From assembly GCA_025057015.1 (NCBI GenBank), contig JANWYG010000010.1, forward strand, positions 478,506 through 542,505: 64,000 nt of DNA, given 5' to 3'. This DNA is from Blastocatellia bacterium (lineage in GTDB: Bacteria > Acidobacteriota > Blastocatellia > Chloracidobacteriales > JADJPF01). Positions 22,772-64,000 of this stretch are shown here, piece by piece; the first letter of the stretch is position 1; the number at the start of each line of letters is the position of its first letter. A model generated the notes under the pieces. That model saw only the letters and a program-made list of their open reading frames with translations. It was not told where the DNA came from and searched no databases. The translations under genes and the position numbers were made by a program.

Positions 22772-22802
22772 TGTCTGGCAGACAAAAGCAAATATAGGTC
22801 AT

Positions 22803-26804: not shown

Positions 26805-28147
26805 AAGTTTCAGAAGCAAGAGATTATTATCATGGACTGCTTGAACGCCATCTCGATTCTACTGTGGAGCTACTACATAGAGGTTCGCTGGAAAATGGCT
26901 TGTACTTTGGTAGTCGCTCAGTATGTACGGTTCTGAGGCCGTACTTTATAGACCGTGAGACGTATGCTTTCGTCAAGCGGGCTTCTGAGTTGGTTATGCG
27001 GGCTGTAGCGCGGCTGGGAGAATTGTTACTGACTGAGGCTGAGCTTCGGCGAGAGCTTGATCTGGAGCCGCAGGAAGAGGCTGTAGCTCTGATACCTTCG
27101 GGTTTCGGTAATCCTGACGTTAGTGCTAGGCTCGACGGTTTTCTCGCTCCCGAGGGAGAGTTTTACTTTGTCGAATATAATGCCGAAAGTCCAGGTGGGC
27201 TGGCTTATGGTGATGTACTGGCAGAGATTTTTATGCAGATGCCTGTTATGAAAGAATTTTGCGATAGGTATAAATGTAGCATCTTCCCGGTACGTGAGCG
27301 AGTCTATGAAAACCTCATTGCTGCATATCACCGTTGGGGCGGACATGATCTGCCGAACATAGCTATAGTTGACTGGTCAGGAGTTAGTACATACAGCGAA
27401 TTTGTCCTGATGAAGAAGCGTTTTGAAGAGCGTGGCTGTAAGGTTGTCATCTGCGATCCGGATGAGTTGGAGTATCGAAATGGTAGGCTTTACAGAGAGG
27501 ATTTCTGCATCGATCTGGTCTATAAGCGTGTCATAATAGGCGAATTGCTTACCCGCAAGGGTATAGACCATCCGATTTTCCAAGCTGCTAGAGATCGGGC
27601 AGTCTGTGTCTCAAACGGGATGGGCGTACAGATGCTTTACAAGAAGGCTATGTTTGCTTTGCTAAGTGATCCCGTTTTTTCTGCTCAACTTGGCTTAGAC
27701 GACGAGCTAGCTGCTGCGTGTAACAAGTATATACCTTGGACACGCAAACTACGTAGCTGTAAGACTAAATATGGTGATAAGGAGGTAGACCTTGTCGAGT
27801 TCACGTTCGAGAACAAAGAGCGTTTAGTGCTCAAGCCGAACGGAGAATATGGTGGTAAGGGAGTTGTGCTGGGTTGGGAAGCCTCGGATGAGCTTTGGAA
27901 AGATACTGTAAAGGAAGCACTTGACGGTGCGTCTTATCTGGTACAAGAGCGTGTTCCTCTTGGACGTGATATCTATCCAAGTTATATCGATGGTAAACTT
28001 GTCTTTGATGAGCGTTATGTGGATATAGACCCTTATGTATGGAATGGCACGCAGATAGAAGGTGCAGGTATAAGGCTCTCGAAGTTGGCTCTGCTGAACG
28101 TAAGTGCTGGAGGTGGATCGGCTACGCCTTTGGTGGTACTCGAATAA
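26801..28147 (+). CDS. ATP-grasp superfamily protein, glutathionylspermidine-synthase-like / circularly permuted type
   Basis: The GTG start at 26801 overlaps the upstream stop (GTGA) and sits 7 nt after GGAGG. RLDGF..GEFYFVEYNAESPGG, LVLKPNGEYGGKGVVLG and LVQERV are present. The subfamily assignment is from memory. Confidence 0.6.
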   Translation: MKVSEARDYYHGLLERHLDSTVELLHRGSLENGLYFGSRSVCTVLRPYFIDRETYAFVKRASELVMRAVARLGELLLTEAELRRELDLEPQEEAVALIPSGFGNPDVSARLDGFLAPEGEFYFVEYNAESPGGLAYGDVLAEIFMQMPVMKEFCDRYKCSIFPVRERVYENLIAAYHRWGGHDLPNIAIVDWSGVSTYSEFVLMKKRFEERGCKVVICDPDELEYRNGRLYREDFCIDLVYKRVIIGELLTRKGIDHPIFQAARDRAVCVSNGMGVQMLYKKAMFALLSDPVFSAQLGLDDELAAACNKYIPWTRKLRSCKTKYGDKEVDLVEFTFENKERLVLKPNGEYGGKGVVLGWEASDELWKDTVKEALDGASYLVQERVPLGRDIYPSYIDGKLVFDERYVDIDPYVWNGTQIEGAGIRLSKLALLNVSAGGGSATPLVVLE

Positions 28148-39675: not shown

Positions 39676-41187
39676 TTGCGGCAGGTAGCGGCGGAAAAGA
39701 TACAGCGTGTCTATAAACGAATTCTCAGTAAGTTTCAGCTGGTTTGGGCTGTAAAGCGGCATTATGAGGCTATAGCGTTGGGTATTGGCGAGGAAGGCCT
39801 AGATGTGCCGGTGGACTTAGGTCGCGTCTATGGGACGCTCAAAGTGCTTTATCACGTGTTACCGAAGGCAGATTCGGTGGCTATTTTGGGTCGGTTGGAA
39901 GCTGTAGCTCGCGACATAGATTCTATATATGCGTGGTTTGCAAAATTAGATGAAAAAATGTCGCCTTACGAGCTGCGCTACTATCTGGAACATGCAGGAG
40001 AGGTAGACCAGCCTCAGCTACGTGCTCTGGCAAAGTATTTTCTCTCTAAGAAGAATCCAACGAAGCAGGATATAGCCAAGGTAGACTATCTGCTCACGCA
40101 TTTGTTTTCCTGGCTAGGCCCTGATGGCAAGACGTATGTCAATCAGGAGAGTGAAGAGGAATTAGAGTCTGAAGTACGCCGTCTTTTACCGAGGAGACTG
40201 AGGCGTCCGAAGACGGAGCGCAGTCTTGAGAGTGAGGCTAAGGCCTGCGAGTTTATAGAGAGGTTGCAGAGGATCTCATCATATGATGAGCTAATAGGAA
40301 GTGGGATAATCGAGCAGGCACGTGAGTTTAAAAATAGTTTGGGATTATTGTTTTTTGATGCTGGTGTACTTGCAAAGTGTATACAGCTAAATATTAGGAT
40401 GCGGAATCATTTTGAGCTTTTCCTGAGAGAGGAGAATCAAAAACTGCGGCAACTGGCTATAGAGCTGATAGGGGCTGGTAGGGAGGTTATTCGAGCTGGC
40501 GAAGGCACTTCCTTTAGTGCGAGAGATGTATTGAACTTTGCTGAATTAGCTGGGCAGTTTCTGTCTGCGGACTATAGTCAGACGAGACCATACCTTGAGC
40601 AGATCTCGCATCTGCGCAACTTAATGGCTCGGCATAAGAATATTTCGAGTCTAGCTCCACAGAGTGCTTATCAGGTAGATAAGGCGTATGTTGGGAGCTT
40701 AGCTGCAGCGATAGACTCTGAAACTGACGAGTTAGCTGTGGCGCTACAGAAGAGGATAAAAAGCTTGCAGGAGAGAATAGCTGCACTACAGACTGCCCGT
40801 CCTTCGGCTGTCAAGGTCTTGCATCTAGATTCATCCACCCTGGTACTTTCTTCTTGGGAGTTAGAGGCTTTCAAGCTGTCTGGAGGCAAAGGTTATTTGT
40901 CGCACACTAGCCAGGACTTGCTCAAGAAGGCCGTAGCGCTTATTGCTGAGCTACAGGAGAATGCTGCCCTGTACAAAAAGCACGTAAATTCGCCGCAGCT
41001 TGCAAATACTTACTTGATGGGAGTAAACTTTTACTTGTTGCAGGCTCATAAACTTGCTGATGAGTTGGAACATTTTGCGGCTGTAGCTAGAGAACGTAAC
41101 GAGATTGATATAGCATGCAACCTATCAGCGACGCGCCAAAAGCTACTTGACAGTTGCGAGCGTCTTAAGGGGCTTTTTAATTCCTGA
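39676..41187 (+). CDS. Hypothetical alpha-helical protein
   Basis: 503 aa. A TTG start follows GGAGAG. I recognise no motif. The ORF is uninterrupted, and its 3' end may overlap the hflX start. Confidence 0.5.
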   Translation: MRQVAAEKIQRVYKRILSKFQLVWAVKRHYEAIALGIGEEGLDVPVDLGRVYGTLKVLYHVLPKADSVAILGRLEAVARDIDSIYAWFAKLDEKMSPYELRYYLEHAGEVDQPQLRALAKYFLSKKNPTKQDIAKVDYLLTHLFSWLGPDGKTYVNQESEEELESEVRRLLPRRLRRPKTERSLESEAKACEFIERLQRISSYDELIGSGIIEQAREFKNSLGLLFFDAGVLAKCIQLNIRMRNHFELFLREENQKLRQLAIELIGAGREVIRAGEGTSFSARDVLNFAELAGQFLSADYSQTRPYLEQISHLRNLMARHKNISSLAPQSAYQVDKAYVGSLAAAIDSETDELAVALQKRIKSLQERIAALQTARPSAVKVLHLDSSTLVLSSWELEAFKLSGGKGYLSHTSQDLLKKAVALIAELQENAALYKKHVNSPQLANTYLMGVNFYLLQAHKLADELEHFAAVARERNEIDIACNLSATRQKLLDSCERLKGLFNS

Positions 41188-52756: not shown

Positions 52757-52858
52757 ACCTCCTATGCGGCGAGTATTTTATCACCACGCAGAGTAGCTAA
52801 GTAAGTGCTAGACTAGGGTTTCTTCCCAGAAGATTTGAAGTTAAGCTTGGAGGAGAGT

Positions 52859-54433
52859 ATGTTGCTGATATTTTTGCTAATTATTTTGGGACTTGTAGAC
52901 GAACATAGGATAGACCAGCGCGACGAGCTTGTAGCGCGGGTAAGCGTCCTTGAAGGCGAAGCGAAGGTCAAGTACAAGGGTGAGGAGGATTGGAACAGTG
53001 CTACGGGGAACTATCCTCTGTCGGCTGGCGATTTCTTGTACGTGGAGGAGAGTTCTAGGCTGGAACTAGAGCTTTATCTGGCCTATGTGCGTCTTAACGA
53101 AAAAGCTGTGTTGGAGATACTTTCTCTTGCGCCTTATAAATATAAGTTCAGCTTATCTGAAGGCACAGCTTCGTTTACTCTGCTCGAGGATATGCGGGAG
53201 TTCGAAGTTTATACTCCGGTTGCTAAAGTGAAGCTAAAGGGCAAGGGTAGCTATCGGATCAACGTACTGCCAGGTGGAGATACAGAGGTTATCTCACGTC
53301 GAGGTAGCGGTGAAGTTTTTGTTGCTGGAGATACTTTCAAGCTGAAAGATGGCAGGCGGGCTGTTGTTCGGGCTGATGATCCAGAAGATGTGGAGATTTC
53401 AAGCAATCTGATGAGTGATTACTGGGACGGATGGAATGATGAGCGTGACGGTCTTCTAAGCAGTGTAGCTTCAGTGAGTATATCTAACACGTATGCTCAG
53501 GGTTTAGCCGATCTGTACAGGTATGGTACTTGGATAGACTCTACACCTTGGGGCAGAGTTTGGGCACCTTCAGGAGTACCTGCCGGTTGGGTACCTTACC
53601 GCAACGGTTTCTGGATATATAGAAGATGGGGATGGACGTGGGTATCGCTGGAGCCCTGGGGTTGGTTGCCATATCACCAAGGTCGTTGGGTATTCTTTGC
53701 GGATATAGGTCGTTGGGTGTGGGTACCTTATGTAGACTATTTTTGGTATCCTTCGCTCGTGTACTGGTACTTTATTAGGAATAACGGCAGGGACTATGTT
53801 TGTTGGCGGCCTCGTCCTTTGCAGGATTCTGGACGGCCTCGTGTGGAGAGACATCTTGGCGACGAAGGGACTACTTATCCGGGTGGATCTCCTAGGCCTC
53901 GAATAGATGACTTAGGTAATGACATTACCGTGTTGGACTTGGACGATTTCGTAGGCGGTAGACCTCCCGGGCAGTCGGAACGGCCTAAGGAGGTAATTCT
54001 CAAAGCAGTAGAGAGTGTGCCTACTATAAGTCTGCCGCAGGTACCTATGGCTAGGCCTCGCAGCGTATTGCCTCCTGACGCCGTTCTGCGACCTACGAAG
54101 CAGGAGGCTGAGGTTACGACGAAGCCTCGTCAGTCTGAAGGTGGCCGCAATAGGATAGATGATAAGCTTGCTCCGGTCTATGTACCAACGGACAGGCCTG
54201 CACAACCCTCGAATGGTACTACTGTAGAACGTCCATCAATGCCGAAGGTAAAGCCTGTAGATCGTCCCGTAGAACGTCCCGTAGAGCGTCCTACTAATAA
54301 GCGCCCTGAGGGTTCTGTAGAACGTCCCGTAGATCGTCCTAGGTATCGTCCTGAACGGCTTGAGCGGCTGAACAAGGTAGAGCTTGGTAGTCCAGCAGAA
54401 GATACGCAGCCTACGCCTAGGCGCCGTAAGTGA
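52859..54433 (+). CDS. Secreted or anchored protein with FecR-like domain, Trp-rich region and Pro/Arg-rich VERP-repeat tail
   Basis: The GGAGGAG RBS supports ATG 52859, and the N-terminus is hydrophobic. A FecR-like segment (EGEAKVKYKGEEDWNSA..PLSAGDFL) is followed by a W-rich block (WGRVWAP..GWVPYRNGFWIYRRWGWTWVSLEPWGWLPYHQGRWVF). A 12-nt tandem DNA repeat GTAGANCGTCCC lies at 54224-54352. Confidence 0.6.
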   Translation: MLLIFLLIILGLVDEHRIDQRDELVARVSVLEGEAKVKYKGEEDWNSATGNYPLSAGDFLYVEESSRLELELYLAYVRLNEKAVLEILSLAPYKYKFSLSEGTASFTLLEDMREFEVYTPVAKVKLKGKGSYRINVLPGGDTEVISRRGSGEVFVAGDTFKLKDGRRAVVRADDPEDVEISSNLMSDYWDGWNDERDGLLSSVASVSISNTYAQGLADLYRYGTWIDSTPWGRVWAPSGVPAGWVPYRNGFWIYRRWGWTWVSLEPWGWLPYHQGRWVFFADIGRWVWVPYVDYFWYPSLVYWYFIRNNGRDYVCWRPRPLQDSGRPRVERHLGDEGTTYPGGSPRPRIDDLGNDITVLDLDDFVGGRPPGQSERPKEVILKAVESVPTISLPQVPMARPRSVLPPDAVLRPTKQEAEVTTKPRQSEGGRNRIDDKLAPVYVPTDRPAQPSNGTTVERPSMPKVKPVDRPVERPVERPTNKRPEGSVERPVDRPRYRPERLERLNKVELGSPAEDTQPTPRRRK

Positions 54434-54554
54434 AGTAGAAGTAAGCTGCAATGGCCCTTAGTTTAGAAACTGAAAGTTTCGACGGCTTGGAAGAGTTAGG
54501 GAAATTGGGATGCCACTATAACTCTTCTACTTAGCTGAGGGATGTATTGAGCGT

Positions 54555-54590
54555 GCTTATTTCTTTTGTGTAGGAAATAAGCTTCTGTTC
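54555..54590 (+). terminator. Rho-independent terminator-like hairpin
   Basis: GCTTATTTC (54555-54563) pairs with GAAATAAGC (54574-54582) around a 10-nt loop and is followed by TTCTGTTCT. It lies 120 nt after the upstream stop. Confidence 0.5.
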
Positions 54591-54850
54591 TATGTAGGGA
54601 CATATTTAAGGAACAGCGGATGTCTCTTGTTGGTCAAGAATAACTCTGTTCTCACATGCGTAGGGACAGCGGCTGTTCCTACGTGCATAGGGACAGCGGT
54701 GTGTTGGGCGATCCGCAACCAGCCTCGGGAAGCTGTTCCTACGTGTATAGGGACAGCGGGTTTCCGGAGCGCCGAGCCAAACAGCTCCGTATCTGTTCCC
54801 ACGTGTAGGGACAGCGGAGACGATGTTACCCCCCATGATGAGGACAGCAA
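54585..54850. repeat. Array of imperfect 25-27-nt palindromic (hairpin-forming) repeats, consensus CTGTTCCTACGTGYATAGGGACAGCGG
   Basis: Copies lie at 54585-54619 (degenerate, with an insertion), 54646-54672, 54673-54699, 54733-54759, 54793-54817 and 54823-54850 (degenerate). The three best copies are exactly 60 nt apart with 33-nt spacers. In each copy CTGTTCCTA pairs with TAGGGACAG. Confidence 0.75.
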
Positions 54851-54948
54851 GAAGCGTGCAAAGGCTGCTAAGGTTGCGTCGTGGTTTACTCCCCGTGCGC
54901 GAGATAGCAAGATCCCACTTGATGAAAACATAGCCTTATTTCCTTGTT

Positions 54949-55154
54949 TGTGCGGAGGGGTGGGTTGTTGCCTTCATCAACGGCATGGCATCCGGGCTTA
55001 CTCCTTATCCCTGTGTGTGGAGGATGGCGCAGGACCAGCCTATTCTCGGCGCCGAACACGCTTATCCCTGTTATCTGTGTGGAGGATGAATTGGGAGATG
55101 GAAGGAGCTGTATCGGCTAGAGAGAATTCTTTTAGCATAGCGTGTGGGAGAGCG
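54949..55154. repeat. Second repeat family: GTGTGGAGGATG-type purine-rich boxes
   Basis: CTTATCCCTGT..GTGTGGAGGATG occurs twice (55003-55026 and 55060-55088). Related TGTG-GGAG boxes occur at 54949-54960, 55093-55107 and 55142-55154. Spacing is roughly 62-66 nt. Confidence 0.55.
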
Positions 55155-55251
55155 GCTTTCGCTTATATGATTCTAACAGTTTGGTTTTTCAGTGTACCTT
55201 GTTGCTTAGCTCGCAAAGTTTTGATTGGCAGTGCCTGCAAGTGAGCTAAGC

Positions 55252-57699
55252 TCATCTTTTGTCTGTAAATTTATCTATACTTAGGTTAAGTTTTAGTGCG
55301 AGGTCTAGCGCAGCTAGTTTGGTTGCGGGGTTGACGAATTCGTCTGTTTGCTTGCGCTTTTTCTTCAGAAGGATCTTTTCTAAGTAGGCAAGATATACTT
55401 CTTGGGCTCTGCTGATGTCTAATTTTAGCTGCAGTTTGTTTGCTAAGGCTATAAGAGTACTTGCGTCATGTAGGATGTTGTCGTCCAGTGTGTTGAGCTG
55501 TTTGACTTTTTCTAGAAGTGCTTCACTTAGTCGTTTCGCTGCACGGTTGCAGTTGAGCTTATAGCCATTTTCTCGGGCCTCTTTGGCTATGTCCAGTATT
55601 TCACTGAAGGATTCTGGATTGTATAGGTCTGTTAGCTGGTGGATCTTTTGGTTGAGTCTACGGCCTAAGACGTATTCGGCTGCGACGCGATATTCCATAG
55701 GAACAGGCATACCGTCTGCTTTCAGAGCTTTGATAATGCGCGCATTTTCTTCATACAGCTTTTCGTATACGCTGTAGAGCCTGTTGAGCAGTTCATCTGA
55801 GACGCGGCGAATGATATCTCGGCGTTTTTCTATGAACAGATCTCTAAAACTGAAGAACCGAGGCCCGAATTCGTTGTGAATTTCCTGTAGCAGTTCAATT
55901 AAGGTTTTATCTTGGGAATTTAGAAATTTATTTTTTGCTTTTCTATATGAGGCTATGCCAGGGAAGTGGCGGACAGCGCAGTAGAAATCTCTTTCTCCTG
56001 CGTGTAGCAGGCCAAAGACAAAGTCACCTGACGAGTAGGTTATTGTCGATTTAATCTTGATACGTCCGATGGCTACTGATAAGTTGGCTATGTTAAATCT
56101 CTGATAGTCGAGTCGTTCAGCTTCGAAGCAGAATAGGCGGTGCTGGCGGGGATAGTCTTCAAATAGCGAGCTTATGGCGTAAAAATTTACTATGTGTTCG
56201 AGGTCTATGATGGATGGCTTGACTAATTTCCGATATACGCCAGCGCCGGTACGGAATTCTGGAAGATTGCTAGGTGCTAGCTCTAGATGTTTTAGAAAAA
56301 TTTCTTCTAGCTTTTCACCGGTCAATTGCTCGGCTAACTGAATGCTTCTTGCCGCGTATCTTAGCACCTGTACAGTTTCTATGCCTGAGATTTCCGAAAA
56401 AAACCAGGCACAGGAAGTGTACATCAGCAAGCAGTTACGTTGCATTTCCATTAGTAGCAGAGCGCGGGATACCTCTTCTTCGTTTAGTTTTCGTTTGCAG
56501 TTCCGAGCCAGGAAGGCTTTCACAGCTTCATGGTTGCGATTGAGTATGACATTGATGTAGTCATTGCGTGCTTGCCAAGGATCGTCAAAGAATTGGCTTG
56601 CAAGCGACTCAAAGCGTAAGGCTAGTTCGTCTCTCAACCAGTCTAATGCCTTACGAAGGGGTTTACGCCATTTTTGGTGCCATCCGGGTTGGCCGCCGGT
56701 ACTACAGCCACAATCGTCTTCCCAGCGAGCGACTCCGTGGGCACAGCTCCATGAGGATACGGGTTTTAGCTCTACTTCCCATTGTGGCGGATTGAGGGCA
56801 AGGAACTCACCGTAGTTTGTCAATATAAAGCCTCGTTTTTTGGCTTCACGTGTTAGTGCATATGCTAAAGCCATGTCGGCAAACGGTTTGTGATGCCCAT
56901 AGGTTTCGCCGTCAGTAGCTACGTTTATCAGCTGACGGTGAGTACGGGAAGGAACGATGGCAGCAGCTAGGCGATCTACAAGCCGCTCCGCGTTTGTCAA
57001 TAGATCGTCGAAACTTATTGCTTGTGATATGTATCCGTCATAGAAGAAGATGTCTATGAAGCGCCGGTCGCGAAGAAAACATCTATAAGGGCGAGTAGGA
57101 TCGATCTGTCCGTTTGATACGTCTATCCAGTTATTTTGTCCGAGGGGACGGACACGGGCAGCTTGGTATGGAGAAAGTATGATATAGCGTATGTTGTGAT
57201 CGACTAATACTTCCAAAGTGGCATAATCGACGGCGGTTTCTGCCAGCCATATAGATTCTGCGCTACGTTTGAATCTGTATTCGAAATCAGCTAGACCCCA
57301 TCGCACTTGGGTAACCTTGTCGCGACGATTTGCAAGCGGCATTATTATGTGGTTATAGACTTGGGCTATAGCATTTCCGTGACCATTGTGTTCGACTAGG
57401 CTTTTTTTATCAGCTTCGAGAATGCGTTCATAAGTCGTAGGAACGGCCTCTTGCAACCAGCTCATAAGAGTAGGACCTACGTTGAAGCTGATATAGCGGT
57501 AGTTATTGACTATGTCCTCGATTCGACCTTTGGGATCTAGGATGCGAGCCCAGCCGTTAGGCGTGTAACATTCGCTGTTTATACGTTCATTCCAGTCATG
57601 GTAGGGCTCCGCTGAGTCCTGCTTTTCTATAGTTTCAAGCCAGGGATTTTCTCTGGGTGGTTGGTAAAAATGGCAATGTACCGTTAGATATGTGCTCAT
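55252..57699 (-). CDS. GH57-family glucan enzyme with C-terminal DUF3536-like extension
   Basis: 815 aa. The N-terminus YLTVHCHFYQPPRENPW...HDWNERI..ECY.PN is the GH57 signature. ETYGHH is also present. Confidence 0.9.
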   Translation of the reverse strand: MSTYLTVHCHFYQPPRENPWLETIEKQDSAEPYHDWNERINSECYTPNGWARILDPKGRIEDIVNNYRYISFNVGPTLMSWLQEAVPTTYERILEADKKSLVEHNGHGNAIAQVYNHIIMPLANRRDKVTQVRWGLADFEYRFKRSAESIWLAETAVDYATLEVLVDHNIRYIILSPYQAARVRPLGQNNWIDVSNGQIDPTRPYRCFLRDRRFIDIFFYDGYISQAISFDDLLTNAERLVDRLAAAIVPSRTHRQLINVATDGETYGHHKPFADMALAYALTREAKKRGFILTNYGEFLALNPPQWEVELKPVSSWSCAHGVARWEDDCGCSTGGQPGWHQKWRKPLRKALDWLRDELALRFESLASQFFDDPWQARNDYINVILNRNHEAVKAFLARNCKRKLNEEEVSRALLLMEMQRNCLLMYTSCAWFFSEISGIETVQVLRYAARSIQLAEQLTGEKLEEIFLKHLELAPSNLPEFRTGAGVYRKLVKPSIIDLEHIVNFYAISSLFEDYPRQHRLFCFEAERLDYQRFNIANLSVAIGRIKIKSTITYSSGDFVFGLLHAGERDFYCAVRHFPGIASYRKAKNKFLNSQDKTLIELLQEIHNEFGPRFFSFRDLFIEKRRDIIRRVSDELLNRLYSVYEKLYEENARIIKALKADGMPVPMEYRVAAEYVLGRRLNQKIHQLTDLYNPESFSEILDIAKEARENGYKLNCNRAAKRLSEALLEKVKQLNTLDDNILHDASTLIALANKLQLKLDISRAQEVYLAYLEKILLKKKRKQTDEFVNPATKLAALDLALKLNLSIDKFTDKR

Positions 57700-57750: not shown

Positions 57751-60024
57751 TTAGATTATGGCAAAGTCATAGCGTTCTTGGTGGACACTGGGATCGCCTT
57801 TAAGGGTGACTGTGGTACCAAAATAGGCTTCTATTTCGTTTAGAACCTTTCTTTCGCTGTTTCGTAGAATGTCGGCAACAGCAGAATTGACGCGCAAAAT
57901 GACTTCCATGCCAGGATGAAGCTCTACTTCAGCCGATATGCGCCGAGCTTCGGCGAGGATTTCGTAGCAGACCGTTTGAGGAGATTTGACTAAGCCTGAG
58001 CCTTCGCAGTATGGACAGGGGCTACATAAGGTGCGCTCCAAGCTTTGGCGGACGCGTTTGCGAGTAATAGCTACTAGTCCGAAGTCGTTAAACTGTAGTA
58101 CCTTGGATGGTGATCGGTCGGACTTGAGCTCTGCTTCGAGGGCTTGCATGACTTTTTGTCTGTTCTTGCGTTCTTCCATATCTATGAGATCTAGTACGAT
58201 GATGCCGCCTAGATCACGTAGACGTATCTGCCGGACTATTTCCTTTACTGCTTCTAGATTAGTTTTAGTGATGGTATCTTCCAGTCGGTTTGACTTACCG
58301 ACAAATTTACCGGTATTGACGTCTATAGCGACCAAAGCCTCGGTCTGATTTATTACTATGTATCCGCCTGAACGTAGCCAGACACGAGGCTTGATAGCCT
58401 TGTCGATTTCTTCCTGTACGCCATACTCTTCGAATATGGGCTTGCGTTTAGTGTATAGTTTAACGCGGTTGACCAGTTTGGGCTGGAAACGGTTGACGAA
58501 ATCAACTATCCGGGCGTATTCGGTCTCGCTGTCTACCCTTATTGCGGTAAACTCATCTGACAATAGGTCTCTGAGACTTCGCTGCACGAGGTCAAGTTCT
58601 CTACAAATGAGCGCTGGTGCTTTAGTCCGTTCGGCTTTCTTGCGTATGTCTTGCCACGTTCGCACCAAATACATCATATCGTCATGAAGTTCTTGCTCCG
58701 TATGACCTTCACAGGCAGTGCGGACTATAAATCCTCCCTGTACTTGCTCTTTCTCTCTAAGAGATAAAATCAGTTTTCTTAGTCGAGAGCGTTCGGCATC
58801 AGAGGCGATCTTCCTAGACACCCCTATGTGGGTAATGGTAGGCATATAGACGAGGTAGCGGCCAGGCAGTGCTATGTAGGAGGTAATACGGGCACCTTTG
58901 AGTGCTATGGGCTCTTTTGCGATCTGGACGAGTATTTCCTGGCCCTCATGTAGCAACTCTGAGATAGTAGGTTGAGATTTTCCGTTGATAGTTTTTTCTG
59001 GCGCCGCAGAGGGTGAATCTTCAGGAGGATTAGATGAAAAGCGGCCGCTGCGGCGACCACGTCGTCGGCTACTGCGGCGTGTGGAAAAGTCCATGTGCAG
59101 CTTCATTCGGAAGGAAGCATAGCCTTCCTTTAGTTCTTTCTTTTGCTGAGTTGGTTCTTCGTCTACCACTCTTTCGAGACTAGTATTTTGCTGGCTAATA
59201 GGAGTGTTAGTTGCTGGTTCGGGTTGTGGGAGGGAAACTTCGGCTTCATGACTTTGGTCAGATATTTGTTGCTGTACGGAGGTATCTTTGAGGGTCTCAC
59301 CAGCATCTTCAAGCTCATCAACTATGCGCTCGAGATTTGGCTGCTCTTCTTCAGTTCGTTTGGAGCGTCGCCTTGAAGACGAAGCTTTGTTTGAACGGGC
59401 ACGCTTTTTCTTATTCTGGGTTTCTTCGGTAGGGGGTGGTGGGTCTTCGCTTTGCAACTCTTTGGGCGGTTCTGGTTCTGAAGGGTTGTCGATGGAAGAA
59501 GTACCAGGACTAGCGTCTGTCGCTTCTTGTAGATCGTCATCTTTCACTCTGATCATTTCGACTGGGGGATCTACAGGTTCTTGCAGCTTAGCAGTGTCTA
59601 TTTTTGATAATGTGCTTCCTGTGATAGGCCGATCCGGAGTCCAGGAGTAGTCATGCAAGTCTTCACTATCTTCAGTATCTTCTGTCAGGTCTTCTTGTTG
59701 GGGTTCGGCTAAAGACTCTTCCAGAAGTACGTCGGGTTCTGGGGTAGGTTCCTTGGTTTTAACCTCTAAGGTCTCGAATTCATCTGCTCCGTCTTCTTCA
59801 AAGAAGTCTGAGACATACAAGAAGGCGTCTCTTTCTAGACCTATGTCAACAAATGCTGATTGCATGCCGGGCAAAACCTTCATCACTCGCCCTTTGTAGA
59901 TGTTTCCTACTATACCTTGTGACTCATCACTTCGTTCGACATAATATTCAGCGACTATTCCGTCTTCAATAATAGCTATTTTTTTTTCGTGTGCGCTAGA
60001 GCTTATAATCATTTCCTTTGCCAT
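57751..60024 (-). CDS. rng: Ribonuclease E/G family endoribonuclease with large internal low-complexity insertion
   Basis: The S1 domain starts at GNIYKGRVMKVLPGMQSAFVDIGLERDAFLYVSD and resumes at LHEGQEILVQIAKEPIALKGARITSYIALPGRYLVYMP. The catalytic core shows GGFIVRT and ALVAIDVNTGKF. The Zn-link is CPYCEGSG. Confidence 0.9.
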   Translation of the reverse strand: MAKEMIISSSAHEKKIAIIEDGIVAEYYVERSDESQGIVGNIYKGRVMKVLPGMQSAFVDIGLERDAFLYVSDFFEEDGADEFETLEVKTKEPTPEPDVLLEESLAEPQQEDLTEDTEDSEDLHDYSWTPDRPITGSTLSKIDTAKLQEPVDPPVEMIRVKDDDLQEATDASPGTSSIDNPSEPEPPKELQSEDPPPPTEETQNKKKRARSNKASSSRRRSKRTEEEQPNLERIVDELEDAGETLKDTSVQQQISDQSHEAEVSLPQPEPATNTPISQQNTSLERVVDEEPTQQKKELKEGYASFRMKLHMDFSTRRSSRRRGRRSGRFSSNPPEDSPSAAPEKTINGKSQPTISELLHEGQEILVQIAKEPIALKGARITSYIALPGRYLVYMPTITHIGVSRKIASDAERSRLRKLILSLREKEQVQGGFIVRTACEGHTEQELHDDMMYLVRTWQDIRKKAERTKAPALICRELDLVQRSLRDLLSDEFTAIRVDSETEYARIVDFVNRFQPKLVNRVKLYTKRKPIFEEYGVQEEIDKAIKPRVWLRSGGYIVINQTEALVAIDVNTGKFVGKSNRLEDTITKTNLEAVKEIVRQIRLRDLGGIIVLDLIDMEERKNRQKVMQALEAELKSDRSPSKVLQFNDFGLVAITRKRVRQSLERTLCSPCPYCEGSGLVKSPQTVCYEILAEARRISAEVELHPGMEVILRVNSAVADILRNSERKVLNEIEAYFGTTVTLKGDPSVHQERYDFAII

Positions 60025-60059
60025 GTTTTTTCCTCTTCCGTGGACGCTTCAAGGATGGC

Positions 60060-62855
60060 TTATGTTGAGTAGATAGGAAGTCTGCATAGTTCTAAGGGTG
60101 AGTATATGTGTCCGTCTTTTTCATAGTATAGTCTGCTGCGGCGTATTCTACTTTGTAGCAAGGCATGCAGTTTAGCGTCGTCGATCCCGTAAACGGCTGC
60201 TATGACTTCAGTAGGTTTGATGCTGCCGTTGTTGCTAATCTCTATTTGCATGACTAGTTGTTTGCCGCTAGCAGTCTTTTCAAAACTCAGCTTCTTGACG
60301 AACTTTCTCAAGTCTATCTTCTGTGAGCGGTTTTTTCGAGCACGCTCGAAAAAGACTTGTTCCTGAGCCATGAACTCCTCTAGTTTTGCTATTAGGTCTG
60401 CTGTAGTTTGGCCTAATAGTGGCTGCATAGCTGATAAGTCAACCTTATACTCGGCGCGGTTAATCATGGTCAAGCTGCCGGAGTGGTCATCTAGGTTGAC
60501 TAATGCAGTAAACATCAGTCCTTGGGGTAGGACATTATTGATTCTCTCTAGAAAGTCTTCTTGTGTCAATTTATCGGGAGAGACAAAGTCGAGGTATTCT
60601 TTCTCTCCCACTATACCGACACTTAGCGCCGGACCGTATGAGATGATCGGCATAGGGTGAAACCCTTGGCTATAGCAAAGGTGTATGCCTGCTCGTTTAA
60701 ATCCTCGCGGCAGGGCTTTGGTAAGATCTAGGTGACTTAAGTACTTTACTTGTTCAAGCTTGGCATATTCTGCGCGGTATCTGTACTGTGATTCGCGTTT
60801 GTTTTTTTTGAGCTGGAATAATTGTGTCGGGATGTCGCTACGAACGACTTCGAGCAGCGATTGATCGAAGCCGTTTGAGGAACTCTTATATGCTTTATTC
60901 AGTTGCTTTGCCTTGAGCAGATCTTGGCGGATAGCATTTAGATCGCAAGCTAAGCCACAGTTAAAGCACAGCAGAGGTTTATTTTCAACTGCTTCGAAGT
61001 CTTCTATGGATGGTGGTATTGCTGTAGGTCTGCCGTCTATGATTTTAATAGGGAAGCCACAGGGTGGGGCAATTTTAGCTTTGACGCCTTTATCGTACTC
61101 CACGGCCAGGAATCGCTTTTCTACGAGTGAGTCTATATGATCCCATGGTAGTTGCACGTAGCTGCCGTCGGGAGCTTTGATGGGCAGTTCTTCTAGAGTA
61201 GCTTGTGGATCGAAGCCTTCTAGTTTCATAGCTTCGATCCAAAGGTCGTAATTGAACTGGTCGTCCCAGCCGTCAAATCTTGCACCCATCAACCAAGCAC
61301 GTTCTATGACTCGTCCGAGCCTGCGGTCACCTCGTGCCATTATGCATTCCATTTGAGATAGCTTAGCATTGTGGCATTTGAAGGAGAGCTTGTAGCGCCG
61401 GCATAGCTCACGCAGCAATTCCTGTTTTGAGTAGAGTTCTTGCAACGAATTCATGCGGCACCACTGGAAGGGAGTTTGAGGTTTAGGGACAAAAGAAGAA
61501 ACTGAGACAGTGACTTTTGCATTAACTCCCAGGGATTGGGCTAAACAACGTACTTTGTGGCCGAGCTCTGCGATACCGCTTACATCTTCTTCGGTTTCTG
61601 TTGGTAAGCCTATCATGAAATACAGTTTGATCTGTGTCCAGCCGTATGAAAAAGCGATGCGGCAACTACGCAGGACATCTTCTTCAGTTACATTTTTGTT
61701 GATTACGTCGCGCATTCGCTGAGTACCAGCTTCTGGGGCTATGGTGAATCCCGTAGTACGTACCTTAGCTATTTCTTTCGACAAGTCTTCTGTTATTCCT
61801 GAAGCTCGCAGAGAAGAAACCGACAGGGATACGCGATCTGGGTCTAGGGTCTTATTTAACTGTTTCAATACTGGTGTCAGGCAAGTATAGTCGGCTGTAG
61901 AGAGTGAGGTGAGGCTTGCTTCGTCGTAGCCGCCGTTGCTAATACCGCCTAGGATGCTATCTACGATTGATTCAGGAGTACGTTCTCTTACTGGGCGGTA
62001 AATTGTACCAGCTTGGCAGAATCTACAGCCGTCTACACAGCCGCGGGCTATTTCTACGGCGACTCGATCGTGTACTATTTCGGTAAAAGGTACCGGTGAG
62101 TCGGTAGGAAAGGGGTATTTATTGATGTTGCTAACATACCGCCGAACTATGGGATAGGGTAGCTGCTGAGCTTCTTGGGGGGCTATGATTTCGAGTTTGT
62201 GGTATGGTGAAGGTATAGAGTCATATAGTGAAGGGGCATAGACTCCCTCTATTTTGGTGAGCTCAGTAAGCAATTGCCTGCGAGAGAGGTTTCGTTGTTT
62301 GAGTTCTATGTAGAGGTCTATTAGCTCGACGAGTAGTTCTTCGCCCTCGCCTATGAGTAATAGGTCGAAGAAGTCTGCTATTGGTTCGGGACTAAAGACA
62401 CAAGGTCCGCCGCCGATGACTAGTGGATCGGATTTGCTGCGGTCTGCTGTATGTAAAGGTATATCACCTAGATCTAGCATGGTTAGGATATTGGTGTAAG
62501 TCATCTCGTACTGTAGCGAGAAGCCCACGATATCGAATTGGGAGAGAGGAGTAAATGTTTCAAGCGAGGCGAGGGGGAGTTTTTGGCTGCGCAGTGCTTG
62601 TTCCATGTCGATCCAAGGCGCGTAGGCACGCTCAGCATATATATAATCCTTTTCATTTAGCACCTTGTAAAGGATCTTAAGGCCGAGATGTGACATGCCT
62701 ATTTCATACACGTCGGGGAAGCACAGTGCTATGCGAGCTTTTACGGCCTTAGGGTCTTTGAGGACCGAGTTCCATTCGCCACCTATGTATCTTACTGGTT
62801 TTTCCACATTTGGTAAGATAGTATCAAGAGCAGCACGGTAAGCGTTCGTATTCAT
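60060..62855 (-). CDS. B12-binding-domain radical SAM protein (TIGR03960-like) fused to a DUF2344/TIGR03936-like domain
   Basis: 931 aa. The radical SAM cluster motif is EIARGCVDGCRFCQAG, preceded by an N-terminal B12-binding-like domain. The C-terminal roughly 230 aa (YRAEYAKLEQVKYLSHLDL..., GFHPMPIISYGPALSVG) matches the DUF2344 pattern from memory. Confidence 0.85.
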   Translation of the reverse strand: MNTNAYRAALDTILPNVEKPVRYIGGEWNSVLKDPKAVKARIALCFPDVYEIGMSHLGLKILYKVLNEKDYIYAERAYAPWIDMEQALRSQKLPLASLETFTPLSQFDIVGFSLQYEMTYTNILTMLDLGDIPLHTADRSKSDPLVIGGGPCVFSPEPIADFFDLLLIGEGEELLVELIDLYIELKQRNLSRRQLLTELTKIEGVYAPSLYDSIPSPYHKLEIIAPQEAQQLPYPIVRRYVSNINKYPFPTDSPVPFTEIVHDRVAVEIARGCVDGCRFCQAGTIYRPVRERTPESIVDSILGGISNGGYDEASLTSLSTADYTCLTPVLKQLNKTLDPDRVSLSVSSLRASGITEDLSKEIAKVRTTGFTIAPEAGTQRMRDVINKNVTEEDVLRSCRIAFSYGWTQIKLYFMIGLPTETEEDVSGIAELGHKVRCLAQSLGVNAKVTVSVSSFVPKPQTPFQWCRMNSLQELYSKQELLRELCRRYKLSFKCHNAKLSQMECIMARGDRRLGRVIERAWLMGARFDGWDDQFNYDLWIEAMKLEGFDPQATLEELPIKAPDGSYVQLPWDHIDSLVEKRFLAVEYDKGVKAKIAPPCGFPIKIIDGRPTAIPPSIEDFEAVENKPLLCFNCGLACDLNAIRQDLLKAKQLNKAYKSSSNGFDQSLLEVVRSDIPTQLFQLKKNKRESQYRYRAEYAKLEQVKYLSHLDLTKALPRGFKRAGIHLCYSQGFHPMPIISYGPALSVGIVGEKEYLDFVSPDKLTQEDFLERINNVLPQGLMFTALVNLDDHSGSLTMINRAEYKVDLSAMQPLLGQTTADLIAKLEEFMAQEQVFFERARKNRSQKIDLRKFVKKLSFEKTASGKQLVMQIEISNNGSIKPTEVIAAVYGIDDAKLHALLQSRIRRSRLYYEKDGHIYSPLELCRLPIYST

Positions 62856-62883
62856 AACCTTCCAGAAGGATTAGTTGAGATAA

Positions 62884-63981
62884 CTAGTTTGCAAACCTAT
62901 GTAGGTTAATGTTTATAATCAAGCCTACAGCTATCATAGTACTTAGGATGGAAGAGCCACCGTAGCTCATCAACGGCAAGGTAATACCCATGATGGGGAC
63001 AAGTCCGACTACCATGCCGAGGTTTACTATGATCTGGTAGGCGAAGACAGCTATGAAGCCGAAGATGACCAGCATACCGAAGCGATCGCGAGCCTTTTCG
63101 GCTATGCTCATAGCTCTAATAATTATAAACAAATATAGTAGAAGAACAAAAATACTTCCGACGAAACCGGTTTCTTCGGCCAGTACTGAGCCTATAAAGT
63201 CCGTATGATGTTCAGGTAGGAAGCCGAGACGGCTTTGAGTTCCCTTCATTATTCCTGTGCCAGTGATACCGCCTGAGCCCACGGCTATCATTGATTGTAA
63301 AGTTTGATAGCCGAACTGTCGGCGAAATTCGGGTTGCTCAAAGAGTTCTGGGTTAACTATCGCTTCGATTCGCATTATTTGGTAGGGTTTAAGGACATAA
63401 GGTTTGAGGATGTACACATAGCTGAGGGGCATTAGGGCTACTATTGCTACTGCGGAGATTATTACTAACCTTAGGTCTAGGTTGCTTAGGAAGAGCATAG
63501 TAGCAAGTATAGGGAGGAAAGTAGTAGCGGTGCCTGCGTCGGGCTGTAGCATTATCAGAGCTACTGGTAGTGCAGTTATGGCGGTAGCTTTGAGGATGTC
63601 TGTCCAAGGGAGGTTACCTTTACGCAGTGGGGAGAGAAATTTTGCTAGGGCGAGTATTACGGCGAGCTTGACAAATTCAGATGGTTGTAGGTTGAGCACT
63701 CCTAGGTTTATCCAATTTTTTTGTCCTTTTACTTCTTGACCGAAGATTAGGACCATAATCAACAGGAAGATTCCTGCGATGTAGATGTGGGTGATGTGAT
63801 TATATATCCTTCTATAGTCATATCTGACCACTATAAGTAGGGCTATTAGGCCGAGGGCAAGGGCGAAGATCTGCTTGATCCAGAAGTTTTGTGTAGGGGT
63901 TGAGCTATAGATTTCTACTATGCCTATAGAAGTAATGGTTAGGCAAGCAAGTAGCAGGGACCAATCGAAGTCTCGCCACAT
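62884..63981 (-). CDS. rodA: SEDS-family peptidoglycan glycosyltransferase RodA
   Basis: 365 aa, multi-pass. LQPSEFVKL, LQPDAGTA, PEHHTDFIGSVLAEE.GF and GITLPLMSYGGSS are FtsW/RodA/SpoVE motifs. Confidence 0.9.
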   Translation of the reverse strand: MWRDFDWSLLLACLTITSIGIVEIYSSTPTQNFWIKQIFALALGLIALLIVVRYDYRRIYNHITHIYIAGIFLLIMVLIFGQEVKGQKNWINLGVLNLQPSEFVKLAVILALAKFLSPLRKGNLPWTDILKATAITALPVALIMLQPDAGTATTFLPILATMLFLSNLDLRLVIISAVAIVALMPLSYVYILKPYVLKPYQIMRIEAIVNPELFEQPEFRRQFGYQTLQSMIAVGSGGITGTGIMKGTQSRLGFLPEHHTDFIGSVLAEETGFVGSIFVLLLYLFIIIRAMSIAEKARDRFGMLVIFGFIAVFAYQIIVNLGMVVGLVPIMGITLPLMSYGGSSILSTMIAVGLIININLHRFAN

Positions 63982-64000
63982 TCTTCGGTCACGTAGGATT

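What the first reader, a model, noticed from the sequence alone, without database searches (positions are those of the whole stretch)
54585..54850. 60-nt-periodic array of palindromic hairpin repeats in a long spacer between convergent genes
Six copies, three good and three degenerate, match CTGTTCCTACGTGYATAGGGACAGCGG. The three best copies start at 54673, 54733 and 54793, exactly 60 nt apart, and are separated by 33-nt spacers of different sequence. Copies 54646 and 54673 abut with no spacer. Each unit folds as a 9-bp stem (CTGTTCCTA / TAGGGACAG) with a 6-nt loop. The single non-Watson-Crick position is a G-U wobble only if the + strand is the transcript; on the minus strand it would be a C-A mismatch. 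All good copies keep this asymmetry, although that could simply reflect recent duplication. The array begins right at the putative terminator of the upstream gene. The geometry superficially resembles a CRISPR array (27-nt repeat, 33-nt spacer). However, the repeats are not identical, two copies lack a spacer, and no cas genes are nearby. Alternative explanations are REP/BIME-like elements, a structured sRNA or protein-sponge RNA, or an array of binding sites for a dimeric DNA-binding protein (half-sites TGTYCCTA-N6-TAGGGACA).
Basis: seen in the sequence. Interest (0 to 1): 0.6.

Follow-up and report, generated by a model that had tools for sequence, protein, structure and literature searches.

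The report
Cas-less CRISPR-like hairpin repeat array
Between two converging housekeeping genes of an uncultured soil-type bacterium (Blastocatellia) lies an 818-base non-coding insert, absent from its nearest relatives, that carries a real array of hairpin repeats spaced like a CRISPR array but with no cas genes nearby and no copy found anywhere else, so it is an odd but still unclassified local element.

Summary
Four same-orientation copies of CTGTTCCTACGTGYATAGGGACAGCGG (54646, 54673, 54733, 54793) are highly significant. The two further "degenerate" copies are only marginal. The two full spacers are exactly 33 nt. They are unrelated to each other, GC-rich and not self-structured.

I found a second repeat family (54932, 54994, 55057) with a 62-64-nt period in the same spacer. 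The whole 818-bp spacer is lineage-specific: in the syntenic relatives (71% protein identity) the same two genes are about 15 nt apart. The region is non-coding and is the GC-richest stretch of the window.

No further copy was found in about 78 kb of this genome, in 1.7 Mb of fetched loci, or in the GTDB, JGI, IMG/VR, phage and plasmid collections. No cas, transposase or RAYT gene lies within -54/+13 kb.

An abundant REP family is therefore unlikely, neutral tandem duplication is excluded, and CRISPR membership is unproven. The closest array-like match in 1.8 billion proteins is a spurious ORF over a type I-E array, and DNA identity to I-E/I-F repeats is only about 60-65%.

My ranking is: a cas-less CRISPR-derived relic (about 0.3), a modular hairpin RNA (about 0.25), and a low-copy REP-like cluster (about 0.15). 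Interest is moderate to low until the whole MAG and transcript data are examined.

The parts
54434..55251 (.). 818-bp non-coding insert between the stop codons of the convergent DUF6600 gene (52835-54433, +) and GH57/DUF3536 gene (55252-57699, -). It is absent from the syntenic relatives.
   Evidence: ORF list and Pfam. Relatives L082, L083 and L085 have about 15 nt between the same two genes. Both flanking proteins are full length. ORFs inside score about 0 on codon usage, against 0.26-0.45 for real genes. NCBI accessions of the two flanking proteins are consecutive, so no CDS was called between them.
54488..54529 (+). Long hairpin in the AT-rich left flank (GGAAGAGTTA...TAACTCTTC).
   Evidence: Centroid structure of the spacer. 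The left flank has GC 0.40.
54555..54582 (+). Terminator-like hairpin GCTTATTTCTTTTGTGTAGGAAATAAGC followed by TTCTGTTCT.
   Evidence: Terminator scan. Fold -12.4 kcal/mol, z=-5.96.
54585..54620 (+). Degenerate family A unit (CTGTTCTATGTAGGGACA + TATTTAAGGAACAGCGG). Marginal.
   Evidence: Local alignment to copy A4 gives p=0.014. Profile E=4 and E=36 for its two halves.
54646..54672 (+). Family A copy A2, CTGTTCTCACATGCGTAGGGACAGCGG. It has 5 substitutions and abuts A3.
   Evidence: (E 1.9e-7).
54673..54699 (+). Family A copy A3, CTGTTCCTACGTGCATAGGGACAGCGG. 9-bp stem, 6-nt loop.
   Evidence: E 2.5e-8.
54700..54732 (.). Spacer 1. 33 nt, GC 0.64, unique.
   Evidence: No match in phages, plasmids or IMG/VR.
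54733..54759 (+). Family A copy A4, CTGTTCCTACGTGTATAGGGACAGCGG.
   Evidence: E 3.9e-8.
54760..54792 (.). Spacer 2. 33 nt, GC 0.61, unique.
   Evidence: No match in phages, plasmids or IMG/VR.
54793..54817 (+). Family A copy A5, CTGTTCCCACGTGTAGGGACAGCGG. 25 nt, with a 2-nt loop deletion.
   Evidence: (E 1.7e-6).
54825..54912 (.). Two weakly similar units 60 nt apart (GTTACCCCCCATGATGAGGACAGCAAG and GTTTACTCCCCGTGCGCGAGATAGCAAG). Possibly decayed repeats. Marginal.
   Evidence: Local alignment p=0.024. They fold better on the minus strand.
54932..54967 (+). Family B copy B1 (CCTTATTTCCTTGTTTGTGCGGAGGGGTGGG).
   Evidence: Three-copy profile E 6.4e-5. With the two-copy profile it ranks only 6th in the window (E=15), but it lies in phase, 64 nt upstream of B2.
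54994..55034 (+). Family B copy B2 (GCTTACTCCTTATCCCTGTGTGTGGAGGATGG).
   Evidence: An exact 13-mer TGTGTGGAGGATG is shared with B3. Profile E 9e-9.
55057..55096 (+). Family B copy B3 (GCTTATCCCTGTTATCTGTGTGGAGGATGA).
   Evidence: E 9e-10.
55204..55251 (.). Hairpin GCTTAGCTC...GAGCTAAGC abutting the GH57 stop codon.
   Evidence: Centroid structures on both strands. Sequence.

Best explanation
The spacer is a lineage-specific non-coding insert. Its core is a small, cas-less, CRISPR-like array.

Shown:
- Same-orientation palindromic repeats of 27 nt (28 nt for the best pair) are separated by unrelated, GC-rich, unstructured 33-nt (32-nt) inserts at an exact 60-nt period.
- An AT-rich flank precedes the array.
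- A more decayed second set of repeats follows, with a 62-64-nt period and 32-nt unrelated spacers.

Inferred:
- This geometry is the signature of a ruler-type integrase of the Cas1-Cas2 kind. Such an enzyme duplicates a repeat each time it inserts a fixed-length foreign fragment.
- I therefore read the block as a relic. It was either an orphan array imported from a GC-richer donor, or an array seeded at a repeat-like palindrome.
- It has lost, or never had, adjacent cas genes and is now decaying: one spacerless repeat pair, a 2-nt deletion, and five substitutions in one copy.
- Today its hairpins are at most transcribed as part of the long 3' regions of the two convergent genes, where they would act as passive stem-loops that block exonucleases or terminate transcription. 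Immunity function is not expected.
For: - Four significant repeats sit at spacings of 27, 60 and 60 nt, with two spacers of exactly 33 nt that share no similarity. Neutral tandem duplication cannot give 26/27 identical repeats next to unrelated spacers.
- For the best pair the repeat can be read as 28 nt with a 32-nt spacer (family D4). From memory, that is the type I-F geometry.
- The second family has the same architecture.
- The spacers behave like random foreign sequence. They are not self-structured (z +0.6 to +1.3 in four of five), and their GC is 0.58-0.66 in a 0.47 genome.
- The upstream flank is AT-rich and leader-like (GC 0.40).
- The block is absent from the syntenic relatives, so it was gained.
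- Among 1.84 billion representative proteins, the only array-like relative of the ORF spanning the repeats is a spurious ORF over a genuine type I-E CRISPR array next to cas3-cse1-cse2-cas7e-cas5e.
- Alignments to I-E and I-F repeats give z of 2-3.3.
- Arrays far from cas genes, and arrays born by off-target spacer integration, are documented (PMC7145637; Nivala et al. 2018 as cited in 10.1101/148544 and PMC7054753).
Against: - No cas gene lies in -54/+13 kb.
- Only two clean spacers exist. Two repeats abut with no spacer, which CRISPR integration or repeat-repeat recombination does not produce.
- The repeats are not identical, and the best ones sit in the middle of the array rather than at one end.
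- After the hairpin only 3 nt (CGG) of repeat remain, so there is no 8-nt handle as in type I-E/I-F (from memory).
- Similarity to I-E/I-F repeats is only about 60-65%, is equal in both orientations, and is not detected by a DNA profile. The P0125 E-value is inflated by repeats on both sides.
- No spacer matches phages, plasmids or IMG/VR.
- The repeat was found nowhere else.
- GC-rich spacers argue against in-situ acquisition from mobile elements with host-like composition.
- Most small imperfect cas-less arrays reported by CRISPR finders are not real CRISPRs (general knowledge).
Confidence: 0.3

Rival explanations
1. It is a modular structured RNA, either a long 3' UTR or an independent non-coding RNA. 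It would present repeated identical hairpins on unstructured linkers of fixed length, acting as a multivalent scaffold or sponge for a hairpin-binding (or GGA-binding) protein. Selection or gene conversion would keep the hairpins identical while the linkers drift.
For: - The block 54646-55100 is the GC-richest 455-nt stretch of the window (0.56, top 0.03%). This equals the GC of the only validated structured RNA in the window, the cobalamin riboswitch (0.556). Other intergenic regions are 0.40-0.48.
- Family A and B hairpins are all more stable on the + strand. One independent C-to-U change keeps a G-U pair in copy A2.
- GGA motifs number 21 in 586 nt on the + strand, the densest in the window (top 0.04%). 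The family B cores contain GGAGGAUG.
- The region is non-coding.
Against: - There is no covariation.
- The whole-spacer fold on the + strand is not better than shuffles (z=-1.3), whereas the minus strand gives z=-4.5.
- No sigma-70-like promoter was found on either strand, and the array starts right after a terminator-like hairpin.
- There is no Rfam match.
- There is no homologue in any genome, so no conservation can be shown.
- In family A the GGA lies in the stem, and the GGA excess largely disappears when each repeat family is counted once.
- Linkers that diverged to randomness without a single indel, while the 27-mers stay 96% identical, would be hard to explain.
Confidence: 0.25
2. It is a local cluster of a low-copy REP/BIME-like palindromic element. 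A small extragenic hairpin would have been copied into the 3' intergenic region of convergent genes by a transposase acting in trans. It would serve, if anything, as an mRNA-stabilising or terminating stem-loop.
For: - The unit is an imperfect palindrome of 27 nt, extragenic, and located between convergently transcribed ORFs. This is the preferred REP location (PMC3733652).
- It is more GC-rich than its surroundings.
- The insert is lineage-specific.
Against: - There is no other copy in about 78 kb of the same genome (window + L086 + L001) even at 8 mismatches, and none in 1.7 Mb of fetched loci.
- There is no GTAG or CGTC tag at an end of the palindrome (definition in PMC3733652).
- All units have the same orientation, whereas REP clusters mostly alternate (PMC3733652).
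- The linkers are unique rather than conserved motifs.
- No RAYT or transposase gene lies within -54/+13 kb.
Confidence: 0.15
3. It is the non-functional product of local duplication or template switching at hairpins. Gene conversion between palindromes would keep a few copies alike. Under this reading nothing is selected.
For: - The element is found at this one locus only.
- No conservation can be demonstrated.
- Several units are visibly decaying.
- There is no promoter consensus.
Against: - Equal 33-nt spacers with no residual similarity next to 26/27 identical repeats are not what duplication plus drift produces.
- The block has an anomalous GC content for an intergenic region.
- Two repeat families share the same period.
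Confidence: 0.13
4. It is an array of DNA binding sites for a dimeric protein (half-sites TGTTCC / GGGACA), acting as an operator, centromere-like or recombination site cluster.
For: - The unit has dyad symmetry with a 6-bp centre, repeated four times.
- Copy A5 contains the perfect CACGTG core.
Against: - The array lies between two 3' ends, with no promoter to regulate.
- A 60-bp period is 5.7 helical turns, so the sites are out of phase.
- No regulator, ParB or recombinase gene is nearby.
- There is no GC-skew switch, so it is not a dif/terminus site.
- The conserved G-T mismatch in the dyad weakens a symmetric DNA site.
Confidence: 0.06
5. The 205-codon ORF 54627-55244 (+) is a real gene for a Cys-rich repeat protein or a multi-core peptide precursor (AVPTCIGTA repeats).
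For: - An open frame of 205 codons is unusual in non-coding DNA. It was called as a gene in the Logan assembly.
Against: - The codon-usage score is -0.03, against 0.26-0.45 for real genes.
- NCBI's annotation has no CDS there.
- There is no Pfam match, and no real homologue in 1.84 or 5.8 billion proteins.
- The 2-nt deletion in copy A5 changes the peptide, so conservation is at nucleotide level.
- The repeat is a DNA/RNA palindrome.
Confidence: 0.02

Closest known systems
CRISPR arrays of the type I-E / I-F kind, including orphan arrays far from cas genes
   Same: - Short palindromic direct repeats in one orientation.
- Unique spacers of fixed length (33 nt with a 27-nt repeat, or 32 with 28) and a 60-nt period. 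A real I-E array fetched here (L209) has a 61-nt period, and from memory I-F has 60.
- An AT-rich upstream flank.
- Repeats that start TGTTCC and end GGGAC..CGG, loosely like I-E repeats.
- Cas-distant arrays are common (PMC7145637).
   Different: - Only two clean spacers exist, the repeats are not identical, and one repeat pair has no spacer.
- The hairpin consumes 24 of 27 nt, so there is no 8-nt 3' handle.
- No cas gene lies within -54/+13 kb.
- No other array with this repeat was found in any collection.
- There are no protospacer matches.
- Identity to I-E/I-F repeats is only about 60-65% and does not depend on orientation.
Neo-CRISPR loci made by off-target spacer integration (Nivala, Shipman & Church 2018, as cited in 10.1101/148544, PMC7054753, PMC11788318)
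   Same: - A genomic sequence that merely resembles a repeat is duplicated around a spacer-sized insert.
- This gives a short array of non-canonical repeats away from cas genes.
   Different: - No Cas1-Cas2 is known for this organism.
- The spacers are much more GC-rich than the host.
- The model does not explain the remaining about 600 bp of the insert or family B.
- The ancestral site in relatives is a different palindrome, GGAGGG-N-CCCTCC.
REP / BIME elements (PMC3733652)
   Same: - A GC-rich imperfect palindrome of 20-40 nt.
- Extragenic, clustered, and located downstream of convergent genes.
- Plausibly transcribed as RNA hairpins.
   Different: - Not dispersed in the 78 kb sampled.
- No GTAG or CGTC tag.
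- All units in the same orientation, with unique equal-length linkers.
- No RAYT gene nearby.
CsrB/RsmZ-type protein-sponge RNAs
   Same: - A non-coding region with many repeated small hairpins.
- The highest GGA density of the window.
- The family B core contains AGGAUG.
   Different: - In family A the GGA is base-paired in the stem.
- No promoter or terminator pair defines a discrete RNA.
- There is no Rfam match.
- The presence of CsrA in this genome is unknown.
Plasmid centromere arrays such as F sopC (tandem 43-bp units each holding a short inverted repeat; from memory)
   Same: Tandem units each carrying a protein-sized palindrome.
   Different: - In sopC the whole unit, linker included, is repeated.
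- Here the linkers are unrelated.
- The locus is chromosomal and housekeeping, with no partition genes.

Membership tests
CRISPR array | At least three direct repeats of 23-47 nt, regularly interspaced by unique spacers of similar length | tested here: met
   Copies at 54673, 54733 and 54793 have two 33-nt spacers that are unrelated to each other.
CRISPR array | Repeats essentially identical, with every repeat separated from the next by a spacer | tested here: not met
   A3 and A4 are 26/27 identical. A5 has 1 substitution plus a 2-nt deletion, and A2 has 5 substitutions. A2 and A3 abut with no spacer.
CRISPR array | cas genes next to the array or elsewhere in the genome | tested here: not met
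   No cas gene lies from 54 kb upstream to 13 kb downstream; all genes there are housekeeping. The rest of the MAG could not be read with these tools.
CRISPR array | The same repeat occurs in other arrays, or belongs to a known repeat family | tested here: inconclusive
   No exact-pattern match was found in GTDB genomes, JGI metagenomes or IMG/VR. No other ORF carries the repeat in 5.8 billion proteins. The nearest match is a type I-E array ORF at E 7.8e-4, corresponding to about 65% DNA identity. Rfam does not recognise even the genuine I-E array, so its silence means nothing.
CRISPR array | Spacers match mobile genetic elements | tested here: inconclusive
   There was no BLAST hit in 50,697 phage or 72,556 plasmid records. 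No exact 20-23-mers were found in IMG/VR. From general knowledge, most genuine spacers also lack matches.
CRISPR array | AT-rich leader on one side and degenerate repeat at the far end | tested here: inconclusive
   The left flank has GC 0.40. However, the most degenerate family A units (54585, 54646) lie on that same side, and A5 and the weak units lie on the other.
REP / BIME | Extragenic imperfect palindrome of 20-40 nt, preferentially downstream of unidirectional or convergent ORFs | tested here: met
   Definition from PMC3733652.
REP / BIME | High copy number, dispersed over the genome | tested here: not met
   There are zero further copies in about 78 kb of the same genome at up to 8 mismatches.
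REP / BIME | Unpaired GTAG or CGTC tag at one end of the palindrome | tested here: not met
   The ends are (a/t/g)CTGT... and ...ACAGCGG. GTAG occurs only inside two copies, at the loop/stem junction.
REP / BIME | Neighbouring units mostly in opposite orientation, with conserved linkers | tested here: not met
   All units share the orientation given by the CGG tail, and the linkers are unrelated.
REP / BIME | RAYT transposase in the genome | not testable with these tools
   None lies within -54/+13 kb.
CsrB/Rsm-type sponge RNA | Many GGA motifs exposed in hairpin loops or single-stranded stretches | tested here: inconclusive
   There are 21 GGA in 586 nt, the densest in the window. In family A the GGA is in the 3' arm of the stem. 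The excess is not significant once each repeat family is counted once.
CsrB/Rsm-type sponge RNA | Discrete transcript with its own promoter and terminator | tested here: inconclusive
   There is no sigma-70-like promoter on either strand in 54300-55400, and only a terminator-like hairpin upstream of the array. No RNA data are available.
Type III toxin-antitoxin (ToxI-like repeat RNA) | Tandem RNA repeats immediately followed by the toxin gene | tested here: not met
   The repeats are interspersed with unique spacers. The neighbours are a DUF6600 protein and a GH57 glycosidase.

The most novel reading that the evidence does not exclude
The locus is a naturally caught proto-CRISPR. A repeat-like palindrome in a terminator region of a core-genome junction would have been used at least twice, and earlier perhaps several more times, by a ruler-type spacer integrase. 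That would create a new cas-distant array from scratch in an Acidobacterium. It would be a rare natural example of how CRISPR arrays are born and then decay.
Probability: 0.12. Interest if true: 0.65.

Novelty: new variant of a known kind. Interest (0 to 1): 0.33.

Why it matters
If the CRISPR-derived reading is right, the locus documents array birth, or horizontal import, and subsequent decay in a phylum where CRISPR biology is barely studied. It would also give a concrete case for testing off-target spacer integration in nature.

If the RNA reading is right, it would be a new modular hairpin RNA restricted to one Blastocatellia lineage.

Either way it is a useful caution for CRISPR finders. 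A locus can satisfy the repeat/spacer geometry and still fail every other membership criterion.

As it stands, the element is known from one species-level lineage, with no conservation and no expression data, so its importance is limited.

Tried and rejected
1. Rfam, at gathering threshold and at E<=10, found nothing in the spacer. The control on a genuine type I-E array (L209) also found nothing. Rfam therefore cannot speak to CRISPR membership.

2. The exact-pattern scan CTGTTCNNACNTGNNTAGGGACAGCGG found nothing in GTDB genomes, JGI metagenomes or IMG/VR.

3. The relaxed two-copy pattern AGGGACAGCGG-N20-50-AGGGACAGCGG gave more than 120 loci in JGI. All are unrelated tandem repeats without the hairpin. 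It gave none in IMG/VR.

4. BLAST of the 818 bp against phages and plasmids gave no match. Sensitive blastn against the rest of the window, its flanks and the syntenic relatives gave nothing below E about 1.

5. My idea of one continuous 60-nt-periodic array of 9-10 units from 54585 to 55096 has only marginal links between the families (p 0.02-0.04, and A versus B p=0.70). I report two families plus weak units.

6. The terminator-like hairpin 54555-54582 as a fourth family B copy was not significant (E=17).

7. Descent of family A from the ancestral GGAGGG-N-CCCTCC terminator of the relatives was rejected. The shared AGGGACA 7-mer sits in the opposite arm, so simple descent is impossible.

8. 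Hits P0123 and P0124 (E 1.9e-12 and 2.6e-7) are highly repetitive ORFs whose scores add up over 4-15 repeats. A single unit is insignificant.

9. The coding or RiPP-precursor reading of the 205-aa ORF was rejected.

10. Resemblance to parS, dif or tyrosine-recombinase sites (recalled from memory) was rejected. The sequence does not fit, and there is no GC-skew switch.

11. Other intergenic regions of the window contain no comparable repeats.

12. Attempts to see the other two contigs of the same species, to compare array content, failed. They are collapsed as "similar places".

13. A literature search for the sample or MAG identifiers found nothing.
Full report
**Where the finding lies**

The finding lies in the 818-bp gap (54434-55251) between two convergent genes. 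One is a DUF6600 protein (52835-54433, +). The other is a GH57/DUF3536 glycosidase (55252-57699, -). Both proteins are recorded in NCBI as coming from an Acidobacteriota / Blastocatellia MAG. Their accession numbers are consecutive, so NCBI's annotation places no gene between them. The same DNA is present in a 360-kb Logan contig (L001).

**Checking the observation**

- The 27-mer CTGTTCCTACGTGYATAGGGACAGCGG matches exactly at 54673 and 54733. None of 100 shuffles gave two matches.
- Its 3' half, TAGGGACAGCGG, occurs exactly four times and nowhere else in the window.
- A profile of the copies finds four significant members at 54646, 54673, 54733 and 54793 (E 2e-8 to 2e-6).
- The spacing is 27, 60, 60. 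The spacers 54700-54732 and 54760-54792 are both 33 nt.
- For the best pair the repeat can also be read as 28 nt with a 32-nt spacer.
- Copies A3 and A4 fold into a 9-bp stem with a 6-nt loop (-11 kcal/mol, z about -3). A2 and A5 form weaker versions.
- The T-G wobble is in all four copies. On the four-copy alignment seven of nine pairs never vary and no pair changes on both sides, so there is no covariation evidence.

**What else is in the spacer**

- A second repeat family (B; CTTATCCCTGT..GTGTGGAGGATG) has copies at about 54932, 54994 and 55057. Its period is 62-64 nt, and the copies are again separated by unrelated stretches of about 32 nt.
- Between the two families lie two weakly similar units 60 nt apart (p=0.024).
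- The block 54646-55100 has GC 0.56. It is the GC-richest 455-nt stretch of the 64-kb window (top 0.03%). Its flanks have GC 0.40 and 0.45.
- The "spacers" are the GC-richest parts (0.58-0.66).
- The spacers are nevertheless not self-structured. Four of five fold worse than their shuffles.
- The only validated structured RNA of the window, a cobalamin riboswitch, has the same GC of 0.556.
- GGA motifs are denser here than anywhere else in the window (21 in 586 nt). This is mostly because the repeats contain GGA.
- The ORFs in the spacer, including a 205-codon one that a gene caller accepted, have non-coding codon usage (about 0, against 0.26-0.45 for real genes). They have no Pfam match and no real homologue.

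**Comparative evidence**

- The closest relatives of the GH57 protein (71% identity; L082, L083, L085) keep the same convergent gene pair.
- In those relatives only about 15 nt separate the stop codons. That gap holds a small conserved palindrome, GGAGGG-N3-5-CCCTCC, which looks like a bidirectional terminator.
- Both flanking proteins are full length in the window. The 818 bp are therefore an insertion, or less likely a loss in the sister lineage.
- More distant relatives are not syntenic.
- No protein between 71% and 100% identity exists in the 5.8-billion-protein collection. No closer genome is available.

**Is the repeat found anywhere else?**

- It is not in the rest of the window plus 14 kb of extra flank, about 78 kb of the same genome, even at 8 mismatches.
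- It is not in 1.7 Mb of fetched loci.
- It is not in GTDB representative genomes, JGI metagenomes or IMG/VR by exact degenerate pattern.
- It is not in phage or plasmid collections by BLAST.
- A relaxed two-copy pattern returned only unrelated tandem repeats.
- A query made of the four open translations of the array found only the window's own ORF among 5.8 billion proteins.
- An exhaustive HMMER search of the 205-aa ORF against 1.84 billion representatives returned one array-like hit, P0125 (E 7.8e-4). P0125 is a spurious ORF across a bona fide type I-E CRISPR array with a 61-nt period, next to cas3, cse1, cse2, cas7e and cas5e.
- At DNA level, family A is only about 60-65% identical to I-E or I-F repeats, equally in both orientations (z 2-3.3). 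The A profile does not detect the real I-E array.
- I treat this resemblance as a lead, not as proof.

**Gene neighbourhood**

Everything from 54 kb upstream to 13 kb downstream is housekeeping. Examples are methionine synthase, GlnE, SelB, RNase E/G and the mre/PBP2/RodA cluster. There is no cas gene, transposase, RAYT, reverse transcriptase or regulator next to the array. No sigma-70-like promoter is found in the spacer on either strand. A terminator-like hairpin (54555-54582) immediately precedes the array.

**Interpretation**

Two conclusions are firm.
- The array is not a neutral tandem duplication. Repeats that are 26/27 identical sit next to equal-length spacers with no residual similarity.
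- It is not an abundant REP family. There are no dispersed copies, no GTAG/CGTC tag, all units have one orientation, and the linkers are unique.

Beyond that the evidence does not single out one mechanism.
- The geometry is a fixed-length unrelated insert between duplicated palindromic repeats, with an AT-rich flank, seen in two repeat families. The only well-known process that produces this is spacer integration by a Cas1-Cas2-type ruler integrase. I therefore rank a cas-less CRISPR-derived relic first, either imported or seeded off-target, but only at about 0.3.
- Several points count against it: the spacerless repeat pair, the non-identical repeats, the missing 3' handle, the GC-rich spacers, the absence of cas genes and of any sister array, and the low prior for small imperfect arrays.
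- The main rival (about 0.25) is a modular hairpin RNA. Its support is the GC island that matches the riboswitch, the + strand bias of hairpin stability, and the GGA density. It lacks covariation, a promoter and any conservation.
- A low-copy REP-like cluster (about 0.15), a non-functional by-product (about 0.13) and a DNA-binding array (about 0.06) remain possible.
- A coding reading is rejected.

**Verdict**

This is a real, statistically solid, lineage-specific repeat element with CRISPR-like geometry that fails the membership tests of CRISPR, REP and Csr-type RNAs as far as they could be run. It is best filed as a new variant of a known kind, a cas-less CRISPR-like array, with an open mechanism. 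It is moderately interesting. The decisive data are the full MAGs, population reads and strand-specific RNA. These are easy to obtain but lie outside these tools.

Noticed in passing
window 7296-7466 (+): A cobalamin riboswitch (Rfam RF00174, 90.6 bits) lies directly upstream of a TonB-dependent receptor gene (7459-9852). This is a classic B12-uptake arrangement. I used it as the internal GC control for structured RNA.
   Followed up: partly
window 54222-54364 (+), inside the DUF6600 gene: The 3' part of the DUF6600 gene holds 12-nt tandem repeats (GTAGAACGTCCC). They encode V/P-E/D-R-P repeats in a Pro/Arg-rich C-terminal tail. The tail is also Pro/Arg-rich but not repeat-identical in the 55%-identical relative.
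   Followed up: partly
L082 8464-8479; L083 8464-8477; L085 8467-8483: In the relatives, the roughly 15 nt between the convergent GH57 and DUF6600 stop codons are a conserved small palindrome, GGAGGG-N3-5-CCCTCC. It is presumably a bidirectional terminator. It is missing at both gene ends in the window.
   Followed up: partly
window 57751-64000 versus L082/L083/L085 1-6000: There is a synteny break upstream of the GH57 gene. In the window it follows the mreBCD-PBP2-RodA, radical-SAM/DUF2344 and RNase E/G genes. In the 71%-identity relatives it follows S15, LarC-like, FolE, MetG, TatD and YajQ. The GH57-DUF6600-Yip1-GlnE side is conserved.
   Followed up: no
window 54585-55170 (+): This stretch has the highest GGA density of the whole window on either strand (21 in 586 nt; window mean 6.9, sd 3.5). 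The family B cores read GGAGGAUG, which looks like a Shine-Dalgarno sequence fused to AUG.
   Followed up: partly
L209 1-1200: A genuine type I-E CRISPR array (29-nt repeat, 61-nt period, next to cas3-cse1-cse2-cas7e-cas5e) gets no Rfam hit even at E<=1. Rfam silence therefore cannot be used to exclude CRISPR repeats.
   Followed up: yes
window 54627-55244 (+): A 205-codon open frame spans nearly the whole insert and was called as a gene in the Logan assembly. It looks like a by-product of GC-rich, stop-poor repeats. Such ORFs make repeat arrays searchable through protein databases, which is how the I-E array was found.
   Followed up: yes
window 5113-6186 (-) versus 5191-6267 (+): Two ORFs longer than 350 codons overlap almost completely on opposite strands. 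The codon score (0.30) and the Logan gene call (phosphofructokinase) favour the + strand ORF.
   Followed up: partly
window 19952-24668 (+): A small Ras/Roc-like GTPase (22283-22771) sits in a same-strand run with an apolipoprotein-like coiled protein, an OmpA-domain protein and a hybrid histidine kinase. This may be a MglA-type polarity or signalling module.
   Followed up: no
window 25842-28147 (+) and 39676-41187 (+): Three sizeable ORFs (320, 461 and 503 aa) have no Pfam match at E<=1e-5.
   Followed up: no
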